A stretch of 25,625 nucleotides of DNA from Candidatus Bathyarchaeia archaeon (GCA_038847005.1 JAWCOP010000001.1:1-25625); one strand, 5' to 3'. Shown: positions 20,060-20,673, numbered from the stretch's first letter. Program-made: numbers and translations. Notes: generated by a model from the letters alone, not told the origin.

Positions 20060-20667
20060 ATAGCTAGGAGATGGGCATGGCGAGCAAGGATTTGGCCTAT
20101 TTGGTCGGGGCGTTACGCGACGGTAGCGTATATTACTACCGCGCGGGTCGAAATTACACCTGTGCTTGGTACGATCATAATAGGTTTTTCCTTCAGCAAT
20201 CAATCGCGACGCGGTTGAAGCGAGCGTTCAATCGAGATGCGCAGATATCGCAATATAAGCCAAATCATTATCGCGCGCGGATTTATTCAAAGGAAGCATA
20301 CGATTGCCTTCGGGGAAAATATGGTTACCGAAGCCCACAAGCGCTTTGGGGAACTCCCTCCATAATCCGCAAAGCGGATGACGATGCGATCGCGTCTTAT
20401 ATCGCCGGTTTCTTCGATGCAGATGGAGATGTCAGCAGAATTGATCGCACAATAGGCTTCAGCCAAAAGAATTGGGATGCTTTGAGCTTCAACCGCGCAT
20501 GGTTGCTGAAACAAGGTTTGCGACCCAGTCGGATTTTCCTCGCGGATAAAAAGTCGGGAACGTTGCGTTTCTATATAACGTCCCGGCCACAATTGGCCAA
20601 GTTCCGGGAGCTCGTGCCATTTGAGCACCCGGACAAAATCGCCGCCCTCGAACTCCAGCTACAGCAA
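20060..20667 (+). mobile_element. 608-nt BHB intron in 16S rRNA at E. coli position 908 carrying a homing endonuclease
   Basis: Removal restores GGCTGAA|ACTTAAAGGAATTGG. Canonical BHB: AAG/CTT, GCTG/CAGC, bulges AA^A and AA^A, inner stem TAGCT-A-GGAG/CTCC-AGCTA. Confidence 0.95.
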
Positions 20668-20673
20668 ACTTAA
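20071..20673 (+). CDS. Double-motif (monomeric) LAGLIDADG homing endonuclease, I-DmoI-like
   Basis: Motif 1 LAYLVGALRDGS and motif 2 YIAGFFDADGDV about 95 aa apart. SD AGGAG at 20066-20070 favours the second ATG (20077). Lower GC than the flanking rRNA. Confidence 0.93.
   Translation: MGMASKDLAYLVGALRDGSVYYYRAGRNYTCAWYDHNRFFLQQSIATRLKRAFNRDAQISQYKPNHYRARIYSKEAYDCLRGKYGYRSPQALWGTPSIIRKADDDAIASYIAGFFDADGDVSRIDRTIGFSQKNWDALSFNRAWLLKQGLRPSRIFLADKKSGTLRFYITSRPQLAKFRELVPFEHPDKIAALELQLQQT

What the first reader, a model, noticed from the sequence alone, without database searches (positions are those of the whole stretch)
20060..20673. Intact LAGLIDADG homing intron at 16S position 908 in an apparently non-Thermoproteales/Desulfurococcales lineage
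The intron has a canonical BHB and an intact double-motif endonuclease, so it may still be mobile. S908 introns are known from Aeropyrum pernix and Thermoproteales. The surrounding genes and 16S signatures look Bathyarchaeia-like (inference), which would suggest transfer between lineages. The predicted target is the intron-less junction GGCCGCAAGGCTGAA^ACTTAAAGGAATTGG, which is highly conserved in archaea.
Basis: partly seen in the sequence, partly recalled or inferred. Interest (0 to 1): 0.6.

Follow-up and report, generated by a model that had tools for sequence, protein, structure and literature searches.

The report
Mobile endonuclease intron in Bathyarchaeia 16S
The 16S rRNA gene of this hot-spring Bathyarchaeia archaeon carries an ordinary protein-spliced archaeal intron with an intact homing-endonuclease gene of the I-ApeI family, and the gene's nearest relatives sit at the same site in Micrarchaeota (DPANN), so it probably crossed between phyla.

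Summary
A 608-nt insertion (window 20060-20667) interrupts the 16S rRNA gene at the site that holds the Aeropyrum pernix I-ApeI intron (locus 908). It has a canonical bulge-helix-bulge splice motif. Its ORF (20071-20673, 200 aa) has its stop codon 4-6 nt into the downstream exon.

The protein folds confidently as a monomeric two-domain LAGLIDADG endonuclease, closest to I-DmoI, and both catalytic acidic residues are present. It is 34% identical to I-ApeI.

The host is Bathyarchaeia, shown by EF-1alpha and by 16S identity of 97-99% to three same-genus genomes. All three congeners lack the intron and have the identical empty site. A second species of the genus carries the intron in two other metagenomes. 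Between the two species dN/dS is 0.22.

In the endonuclease tree the Bathyarchaeia pair nests inside a DPANN/Micrarchaeota S908 clade at 50-64% identity. It does not group with Aeropyrum, Aigarchaeota or other Thermoproteota (33-42%), and AU tests reject the host-congruent placements.

One caveat: 21 of 29 readable genomes of the host's order carry short ORF-less S908 introns. About 65-70 Bathyarchaeia outside the order carry none.

Verdict: a new host lineage for a known kind of element, with good evidence of cross-phylum transfer. The scan had noted similar endonuclease introns at other 16S sites in DPANN, but no look-alike of this protein.

The parts
19019..21291 (+). 16S rRNA gene that hosts the intron. 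It holds two insertions; the other one, at 19401-19564, is not part of this finding.
   Evidence: Rfam RF01959, 1384.5 bits, model positions 1-1478.
20051..20057 (+). Upstream-exon strands of the BHB: H1 (AAG, 20051-53) and the central 4-bp helix (GCUG, 20054-57).
   Evidence: Pairs with CUU 20669-71 and CAGC 20662-65. 3/3 and 4/4 pairs in all 24 S908 introns, with covariation.
20058..20060 (+). 5' three-base bulge (AAA). The 5' splice site is inferred to lie after 20059.
   Evidence: Read from the sequence. Bulge geometry shown. The cut position follows the established BHB rule and is an inference.
20060..20667 (+). S908 BHB intron, 608 nt.
   Evidence: 621 nt against 13 model columns. Removing it restores GGCTGAAACTTAAAGG, the sequence found in the intron-less congeners G001-G003.
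20061..20070 (+). Intron 5' strand of helix H3 (UAGCU, then one unpaired A, then GGAG). It overlaps a Shine-Dalgarno-like AGGAG at 20066-20070.
   Evidence: The MFE fold pairs it with 20653-20661. The SD reading is an inference from complementarity to the 16S 3' end CCUCC at 21286-21290.
20071..20673 (+). Homing-endonuclease ORF, 200 aa. The second ATG at 20077 lies 6 nt after the AGGAG and may be the true start, which would give 198 aa.
   Evidence: ORF list. Pfam LAGLIDADG_3 E 1.1e-6. AlphaFold pLDDT 94.3 and pTM 0.92. Top structural matches are I-DmoI, PI-PfuI and I-Tsp061I. 34% identity to I-ApeI, E 5e-29.
20092..20127 (+). LAGLIDADG motif 1 (LAYLVGALRDGS, residues 8-19). The catalytic Asp17 is encoded at 20119-20121.
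   Evidence: G13-G18 are invariant in 15 homologues. Asp17 aligns with I-DmoI Asp21.
20398..20430 (+). LAGLIDADG motif 2 (YIAGFFDADGD, residues 110-120). The acidic residue Asp118 is encoded at 20422-20424 and is Glu in nearly all relatives.
   Evidence: Alignment A1. Asp118 aligns with I-DmoI Glu117.
20653..20665 (+). Intron 3' strands: H3 (CUCC + AGCUA, 20653-61) and the central helix (CAGC, 20662-65).
   Evidence: CAGC is complementary to this host's GCUG, whereas the nearest Micrarchaeota copies have CAAC opposite GUUG.
20666..20673 (+). 3' three-base bulge (AAA 20666-68, with the splice site inferred after 20667), H1 3' strand CUU (20669-71), and the ORF's stop codon TAA (20671-73) inside the downstream exon.
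   Evidence: Read from the sequence. The same 'Q-x-T-stop' ending is seen in most S908 homologues.

Best explanation
This is a protein-spliced (bulge-helix-bulge) archaeal rRNA intron at 16S locus 908. It carries a functional or recently functional monomeric two-motif LAGLIDADG homing endonuclease of the I-ApeI family.

How it works:
- The pre-rRNA folds so that the upstream exon (GCUG) pairs with the intron's 3' end (CAGC). This presents two 3-nt bulges.
- The host tRNA-splicing endonuclease EndA cuts in both bulges, and RtcB ligates the exons. That restores the universal GGCUGAAACUUAAAGG. These steps are inferred from the motif and from the presence of both genes.
- The endonuclease is inferred to cut the about 20-bp intron-less DNA site, and repair from an intron-bearing copy installs the intron (homing).

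History:
- The host is a thermophilic Bathyarchaeia genus in which the intron is polymorphic. Two species carry it and three do not.
- The endonuclease lineage nests among S908 endonucleases of Micrarchaeota/DPANN. I estimate about 65% that the element entered this genus from a Micrarchaeota-like donor rather than descending vertically within Thermoproteota.
- After arrival, the intron's 3' helix strand was matched to the new host's exon. This was a synonymous CAA to CAG change in a Gln codon.
For: Shown:
- Insertion and site.
- BHB with covariation in 24 of 24 S908 introns.
- No Rfam intron family matches at gathering threshold, and only 11 intron bases lie outside the ORF (20060-20070, before the first ATG), which rules out a ribozyme.
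- EndA and RtcB are present in the genome.
- Two-domain LAGLIDADG fold, pLDDT 94.3, with I-DmoI at TM 0.72-0.81.
- Catalytic residues aligned to I-DmoI D21 and E117.
- Homology to the named I-ApeI of A. pernix K1, 34% identity, E 5e-29, at the same insertion flanks.
- Host is Bathyarchaeia: EF-1alpha hits at 77-98% are all named Bathyarchaeia/Bathyarchaeota; 16S is 97-99% identical to same-genus genomes; 16S tree.
- Presence/absence polymorphism: G001-G003 have the empty, identical site. L002 and L113, from two other metagenomes, are one second species. Their exons are 97.4% identical to the window and their intron about 92%.
- Purifying selection: dN/dS 0.22, Fisher p 6e-7.
- Tree conflict: the Bathyarchaeia pair lies inside the DPANN clade (100/98 and 97/98). 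Its nearest rows are L061, L062 and L063, whose 16S exons lie inside Micrarchaeota (100/99).
- AU tests reject a Bathyarchaeia + Thermoproteota clade (p 0.034) and a DPANN clade that excludes Bathyarchaeia (p 0.002).
- Composition: endonuclease GC3 is 0.555 against 0.68-0.81 for neighbouring genes.
Against: - There is no biochemical or RNA evidence for splicing or cleavage.
- Residue 118 is Asp here, where relatives have Glu.
- The nearest Micrarchaeota copy is only 64% identical, so any donor is unsampled or the transfer is old.
- Whether the Bathyarchaeia pair is nested in, or sister to, the L061-L063 group is unresolved (AU p 0.175).
- The p of 0.034 is modest.
- Only one Bathyarchaeia endonuclease lineage is sampled, and intron-bearing rRNA genes assemble poorly in MAGs. 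Unsampled Bathyarchaeia copies could change the picture.
- The host's order already carries S908 introns in 21 of 29 readable genomes.
- No co-conversion footprint is visible within 62 nt of the site.
- Low GC3 is common in homing-endonuclease genes in general.
Confidence: 0.8

Rival explanations
1. Vertical legacy. An endonuclease-bearing S908 intron was present in the ancestor of this Bathyarchaeia order. It decayed to ORF-less mini-introns or was lost in most lineages, and survives intact only in this genus. On this view the similarity to Micrarchaeota copies reflects transfer from Bathyarchaeia to DPANN, or a shared third source.
For: S908 introns occur in 21 of 29 readable genomes of the order and in none of about 65-70 Bathyarchaeia outside it. 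In family f3 the 32-53-nt mini-introns are clearly homologous and so vertically inherited. Deletion derivatives of endonuclease introns at the same site are documented in A. pernix (PMC2738675, citing Nomura et al.).
Against: - The three closest congeners, at about 99% 16S identity, are intron-less.
- The short introns share no similarity with this one beyond the BHB.
- A single shallow Bathyarchaeia lineage nests within many deep DPANN lineages, and the AU test rejects DPANN monophyly without it (p 0.002).
- The endonuclease GC3 has not drifted to the host's value.
Confidence: 0.15
2. Immobile relic. The intron is spliced, but the endonuclease no longer cuts, so the element is now only vertically inherited in the two species that hold it.
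For: The second catalytic acid is Asp instead of the family's usual Glu. No intron-minus allele can be checked in this population without reads. There is only one rRNA operon in the assembly.
Against: dN/dS is 0.22 over dS 0.22 between the two species, which shows that the protein has been under selection. The ORF is intact in three assemblies. Asp at this position is used by other active LAGLIDADG enzymes (established knowledge). The patchy distribution within one genus fits ongoing gain and loss.
Confidence: 0.15
3. Assembly or binning artefact. A Micrarchaeota intron was chimerically joined into a Bathyarchaeia 16S gene, or the rRNA contig was mis-binned.
For: rRNA operons are often mis-binned or chimeric in MAGs.
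Against: The same intron in the same Bathyarchaeia exon context appears in two further, independent JGI assemblies. The intron's 3' helix strand is complementary to the Bathyarchaeia exon, not to the Micrarchaeota one. The exons are 97-99% identical to three same-genus genomes.
Confidence: 0.02

Closest known systems
I-ApeI and the A. pernix K1 16S intron I-alpha (locus 908; UniProt O73942)
   Same: Same insertion flanks and the same BHB (GCUG AAA ... CAGC AAA CUU). It is a homologous two-motif LAGLIDADG enzyme: 34% identity over 188 aa, E 5e-29. It falls in the same S908 endonuclease clade, 100/100. ORF-less deletion derivatives and strain-level presence/absence are also known in A. pernix (PMC2738675).
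   Different: The host class differs: Bathyarchaeia against Desulfurococcales. The intron is 608 nt against 699 nt, and the protein 200 aa against 222 aa. I-ApeI is not the nearest relative, because DPANN copies are much closer.
S908 endonuclease introns of Micrarchaeota and other DPANN MAGs (L003-L011, L061-L063; unnamed in the literature I could search)
   Same: These are the nearest relatives, at 48-64% identity. They share the site, have a similar intron length (609-621 nt), the same 'LLQxT-stop in exon' ending and the same BHB.
   Different: The hosts belong to different phyla (16S tree). The central helix is GUUG/CAAC or ACUG/CAGU rather than GCUG/CAGC. Their host rRNA has lower GC.
S908 introns of Aigarchaeota and other Thermoproteota (e.g. 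Calditenuaceae archaeon HR02, GBC70351.1; loci listed by Jay and Inskeep 2015, PMC4496867)
   Same: Same locus and the same endonuclease family, at 37-42% identity. They lie in the same phylum as the host.
   Different: They form a separate, well-supported clade (98/91) away from the Bathyarchaeia pair. Their introns are about 660 nt.
I-DmoI (Desulfurococcus mobilis 23S intron), the structural archetype of monomeric archaeal LAGLIDADG enzymes
   Same: Best structural match, TM 0.72-0.81. The catalytic Asp and Glu positions align.
   Different: It sits in a different rRNA gene at a different site. Sequence identity is only about 21-23%.

Membership tests
Archaeal bulge-helix-bulge (BHB) rRNA intron | Two 3-nt bulges on opposite strands, separated by a 4-bp helix and flanked by helices at the exon-intron junctions. 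| tested here: met
   H1 3/3, central helix 4/4, bulges AAA and AAA, H3 5+4 bp. Conserved with covariation in 24 of 24 S908 introns.
Archaeal bulge-helix-bulge (BHB) rRNA intron | Excision restores the conserved mature rRNA sequence. | tested here: met
   Removing 20060-20667 gives the sequence found uninterrupted in G001-G003 and others.
Archaeal bulge-helix-bulge (BHB) rRNA intron | No self-splicing ribozyme core (not group I or group II). | tested here: met
   No Rfam intron family matches at gathering score. The ORF fills all but the first 11 of the 608 intron bases.
Archaeal bulge-helix-bulge (BHB) rRNA intron | The host encodes the splicing endonuclease EndA and the ligase RtcB. | tested here: met
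   PF01974 at 49.7 bits on contig C78. PF01139 at 499 bits on contig C82.
Archaeal bulge-helix-bulge (BHB) rRNA intron | The intron is absent from mature rRNA in vivo. | not testable with these tools
   No RNA data are available.
Monomeric double-motif LAGLIDADG homing endonuclease (I-DmoI / I-ApeI type) | Two LAGLIDADG motifs, each ending in a catalytic acidic residue followed by Gly. | tested here: met
   LRD17-G and DAD118-G. They align to I-DmoI D21 and E117.
Monomeric double-motif LAGLIDADG homing endonuclease (I-DmoI / I-ApeI type) | Tandem alpha-beta-beta-alpha-beta-beta-alpha domains. | tested here: met
   The DSSP element order fits. Foldseek finds I-DmoI, PI-PfuI and I-Tsp061I at E 1e-10 to 3e-7.
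Monomeric double-motif LAGLIDADG homing endonuclease (I-DmoI / I-ApeI type) | Sequence-family match above the curated threshold. | tested here: met
   Pfam LAGLIDADG_3 at 29.2 bits against a cut-off of 22.5, for the C-terminal domain only. The profile hits I-DmoI at E 5e-6.
Monomeric double-motif LAGLIDADG homing endonuclease (I-DmoI / I-ApeI type) | Site-specific double-strand cleavage of the intron-less allele. | not testable with these tools
   This needs expression and a cleavage assay.
S908 endonuclease lineage inherited within Thermoproteota (Aeropyrum, Pyrobaculum/Caldivirga, Aigarchaeota) | The endonuclease groups with the other Thermoproteota S908 endonucleases, in agreement with host phylogeny. 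| tested here: not met
   The pair nests in the DPANN clade. The AU test rejects the congruent tree, p 0.034, delta lnL 23.

The most novel reading that the evidence does not exclude
The intron passed from a Micrarchaeota (DPANN) episymbiont into a Bathyarchaeia host through cell-to-cell contact. If so, shared rRNA homing introns could serve as molecular tracers of otherwise unknown DPANN-host partnerships. Cultivated Micrarchaeota are known to live on other archaea, including a Thermoproteota host (PMC8784108).
Probability: 0.15. Interest if true: 0.65.

Novelty: new member of a known kind. Interest (0 to 1): 0.4.

Why it matters
- Host range. It adds Bathyarchaeia to the short list of lineages reported to have 16S rRNA introns. 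A 2022 paper lists only Crenarchaeota, Aigarchaeota and Micrarchaeota (PMC8784108), and my searches found no report for Bathyarchaeia.
- Primers. One whole Bathyarchaeia order carries S908 introns of 32 to 608 nt inside the binding region of the widely used 906-927 'universal' primers (PMC4496867). This will bias amplicon surveys against these organisms.
- Evolution. It gives a clean natural example of the homing cycle (invasion, decay to mini-introns, loss) within one order. It also shows a homing intron crossing between DPANN and Thermoproteota, followed by a compensatory change that re-fits the splice helix to the new host's exon.
- Possible use. The enzyme is a candidate thermostable meganuclease with a 16S target.

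Tried and rejected
- Group I intron: rejected. No Rfam hit and no room for a ribozyme.
- PDB by single sequence: only marginal hits. The profile search and the fold search were needed.
- A 20-locus Rfam call failed internally. It was repeated with 10 loci.
- RpoB as a host marker was not found in this 78%-complete MAG. EF-1alpha was used instead.
- Naming the next-nearest representative clusters gave no organism names. Exact look-up of ORFs from the phylum survey did give names: I-ApeI, Calditenuaceae HR02 and Pyrobaculum WP30.
- My first AU test (p 2e-61) was mis-specified, because it split two near-identical rows. It is discarded and replaced.
- The first ORF call for the A. pernix locus (L068) ran into the exon and gave a very long branch. 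It was replaced by the named I-ApeI protein, which is still long-branched.
- Homology between this intron and the order's ORF-less S908 introns: none by blastn or tblastx.
- Co-conversion footprint in flanking exons: none.
- The JGI metagenome scan for copies at 65-89% identity found only a second assembly of the L002 species and DPANN-type copies at 47-54%.
- Nomura et al. 1998 (PMC107333) is not held. The 699-nt length of A. pernix I-alpha is from my memory, but it matches the 699 nt measured here in the locus that encodes I-ApeI.

Full report
**What is there.**
Rfam places an archaeal 16S rRNA gene at 19019-21291, followed by the 23S gene and RNase P RNA. The 16S alignment has two large insertions. 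One lies at 19401-19564 and was handled by another agent. The other replaces 13 model columns with 621 nt. That is 608 extra bases between GGCTGAA and ACTTAAAGG.

Three A's flank each side, so the junction is ambiguous by up to 3 nt. The BHB rule (cut after the second bulge base) gives intron 20060-20667.

**Splice motif.**
The junctions form a canonical bulge-helix-bulge:
- H1: exon AAG (20051-53) pairs with exon CUU (20669-71).
- Central helix: exon GCUG (20054-57) pairs with the intron's 3' CAGC (20662-65).
- The two bulges are AAA and AAA.
- H3: intron UAGCU/AGCUA, continued by GGAG/CUCC.

I extracted the same junctions from 24 S908 introns. They come from this genome, a second Bathyarchaeia species, six ORF-less Bathyarchaeia introns, eleven DPANN loci and five other Thermoproteota. 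All 24 keep H1 at 3/3, the central helix at 4/4 and 3-nt bulges. The intron strand of the central helix covaries with the host exon: GCUG/CAGC, GUUG/CAAC, ACUG/CAGU and AAUG/CAUU. This is strong comparative support for the structure.

No Rfam group I or group II family matches. Only 11 intron bases (20060-20070, before the first ATG) lie outside the ORF. The genome encodes the tRNA-splicing endonuclease catalytic domain and RtcB. Splicing itself is inferred, not shown.

**The protein.**
The ORF 20071-20673 encodes 200 aa.
- An AGGAG at 20066-70 lies 6 nt before a second ATG at 20077. This may be the real start (inference).
- Pfam detects LAGLIDADG_3 in the C-terminal half, at 29.2 bits against a cut-off of 22.5.
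- An alignment with 14 homologues shows two motifs, LAYLVGALRDGS and YIAGFFDADGD, with invariant D17/G18 and G119/D120. Position 118 is Asp here and Glu in nearly all relatives.
- AlphaFold gives pLDDT 94.3 and pTM 0.92, with two alpha-beta-beta-alpha-beta-beta-alpha domains.
- The best PDB matches are I-DmoI (TM 0.72-0.81, E about 1e-10), the PI-PfuI endonuclease domain and I-Tsp061I.
- A profile-to-PDB alignment puts D17 on I-DmoI D21 and residue 118 on I-DmoI E117.

The protein is therefore an intact monomeric double-motif LAGLIDADG enzyme. Activity is untested.

**Site and family.**
A phylum-wide genome search with the profile found further S908 endonucleases in Thermoproteota. Exact look-up named three of the retrieved ORFs:
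- I-ApeI of Aeropyrum pernix K1. Its locus has a 699-nt intron with the same flanks.
- A protein of Calditenuaceae archaeon HR02 (Aigarchaeota).
- A Pyrobaculum sp. WP30 16S-intron endonuclease at another site.

The window protein is 34% identical to I-ApeI (E 5e-29) and 37% identical to the Aigarchaeota protein. Jay and Inskeep (PMC4496867) list locus 908 for Pyrobaculum, Caldivirga, Aeropyrum and Caldiarchaeum. The present site is the Aeropyrum one.

**Host.**
EF-1alpha from another contig of the same MAG has only Bathyarchaeia/Bathyarchaeota among its named hits, at 98-77% identity. The window's 16S exons are 97-99% identical to the 16S of three same-genus genomes. In a 16S tree they sit inside a Bathyarchaeia clade (99/98) that is sister to other Thermoproteota. 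The contig is therefore not mis-binned. The rRNA is 64% GC, which suggests a thermophile.

**Distribution.**
- The three congeners G001-G003 have the empty site. The 50 bases around it are identical to the window's exons.
- A second species carries the same 608-nt intron in two independent JGI assemblies, L002 and L113. Its exons are 97.4% identical to the window.
- Between the two species the intron is about 92% identical. The endonuclease gene shows dN/dS = 0.22 (dS 0.22, Fisher p 6e-7). The protein has therefore been under purifying selection.
- In the 16S tree the window groups, weakly, with intron-less G001 and G003 rather than with L002. The pattern needs either several losses or spread within the genus.

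Across the order I could read the S908 site in 29 genomes:
- 7 are empty.
- 21 carry ORF-less S908 introns. These are 232-241 nt in f8, 238 nt in one f10 genome, 146 nt in both g18 genomes and 38 nt in G013 (family f2), and 32-53 nt in all 16 f3 genomes examined.
- Only G000 has an endonuclease gene.

The f3 mini-introns are visibly homologous to one another, so they are vertically inherited. About 65-70 Bathyarchaeia genomes outside the order cover the site in one uninterrupted match. The short introns show no similarity to the window's intron beyond the BHB.

**Phylogeny.**
- The word-indexed search of 5.8 billion proteins found only 14 relatives: one at 91% (the second Bathyarchaeia species) and the rest at 64% or below.
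- In species-representative genomes, every homologue at 48% identity or more sits at S908 in Micrarchaeota, Nanoarchaeota or unclassified DPANN-like MAGs.
- The three nearest copies (L061 64%, L062 61%, L063 53%) are on short contigs. Their 16S exons fall inside Micrarchaeota (100/99).
- In ML trees of S908 endonucleases, rooted with S919 and other-site homologues, the S908 family is monophyletic (100/100).
- The Aigarchaeota and other Thermoproteota copies form their own clade (98/91). I-ApeI is a long branch outside the DPANN group.
- The Bathyarchaeia pair lies inside the DPANN clade (100/98 and 97/98), next to L061-L063 (95-97/86).
- AU tests reject a tree that joins the Bathyarchaeia pair with the other Thermoproteota copies (p 0.034). 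They also reject a tree in which the DPANN copies form a clade without it (p 0.002). They do not resolve whether the pair is nested in or sister to L061-L063 (p 0.175).
- The endonuclease GC3 (0.555) is far below that of neighbouring host genes (0.68-0.81).

The most economical reading is acquisition by this Bathyarchaeia genus from a Micrarchaeota-like source. The change from CAAC to CAGC in the intron's 3' helix strand restores pairing with the new host's GCUG. It is synonymous within a Gln codon.

Caveats: the nearest DPANN copy is only 64% identical, one AU p-value is modest, only one Bathyarchaeia lineage is sampled, and no co-conversion tract is visible.

**Comparison with what is known.**
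The element is a standard endonuclease-bearing BHB rRNA intron of the I-ApeI/S908 family. Presence/absence polymorphism and deletion derivatives are already described for A. pernix isolates (PMC2738675). BHB introns in DPANN rRNA genes have been noted (PMC6125680), and Micrarchaeota 16S insertions are reported (PMC5498576, PMC8784108).

Three things appear to be new:
- The host class. PMC8784108 lists only Crenarchaeota, Aigarchaeota and Micrarchaeota as having 16S insertions, and my literature searches found nothing for Bathyarchaeia.
- The order-wide prevalence of S908 mini-introns.
- The DPANN affinity of the endonuclease.

**Verdict.**
This is a new member of a known kind and of moderate interest.

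Noticed in passing
G000 contig C82 (locus L112), not in the window: The RtcB ligase gene lies in one 1146-aa open frame. Its Pfam match is split into positions 1-50 and 49-426, about 1.47 kb apart. This probably means an intein, possibly with its own endonuclease, in the enzyme that ligates the rRNA exons.
   Followed up: no
L058 1825-2565 (G003, same genus); equivalent to window 20967/20968: A congener that lacks the S908 intron has a 741-nt insertion at a different 16S site, roughly E. coli 1205-1213. It carries a 154-aa ORF with a GWFDGDG LAGLIDADG-like motif. The genus is therefore hit by more than one homing intron.
   Followed up: partly
L094-L107, L110 (family f3 of the same order): All 16 f3 genomes examined carry a 32-53-nt S908 mini-intron with conserved ends (AAT-TCTC...GAGA-CAGT-TNA). 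These are among the shortest rRNA BHB introns and are evidently inherited vertically.
   Followed up: partly
window 20060-20218 and 20665-20667: The stop codon lies in the downstream exon, so an excised and circularised intron would lack it. The frame would then run from CAA (20665-67) back into 20060 and continue for 52 more codons to the TGA at 20216-18. This is the frame of ORF 19985-20218. Some DPANN homologues instead end on a TAA formed by the helix U plus two bulge A's.
   Followed up: partly
window 19401-19564: There is a second, ORF-less 164-nt insertion in the same 16S gene near locus 374. It is covered by another finding of this scan.
   Followed up: no
L034/L057 (G004); equivalent to window about 19941: A 233-nt insertion at yet another 16S position in a same-order genome.
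   Followed up: no
L012 2501-3073 (Candidatus Heimdallarchaeum aukensis PM71 chromosome): A 40%-identical homologue of the endonuclease that is not inside an rRNA gene. The only RNA hit nearby is a 93-nt tRNA match. It may be free-standing, or sit in an intein or another intron.
   Followed up: no
L002 3905-3988 and L063 95-448: The contig of the second Bathyarchaeia species also has a LAGLIDADG_1 ORF (225 aa), within or just past the end of the 23S Rfam match (23S location). The Micrarchaeota-like contig L063 has a second LAGLIDADG_3 ORF in an upstream 16S insertion.
   Followed up: no
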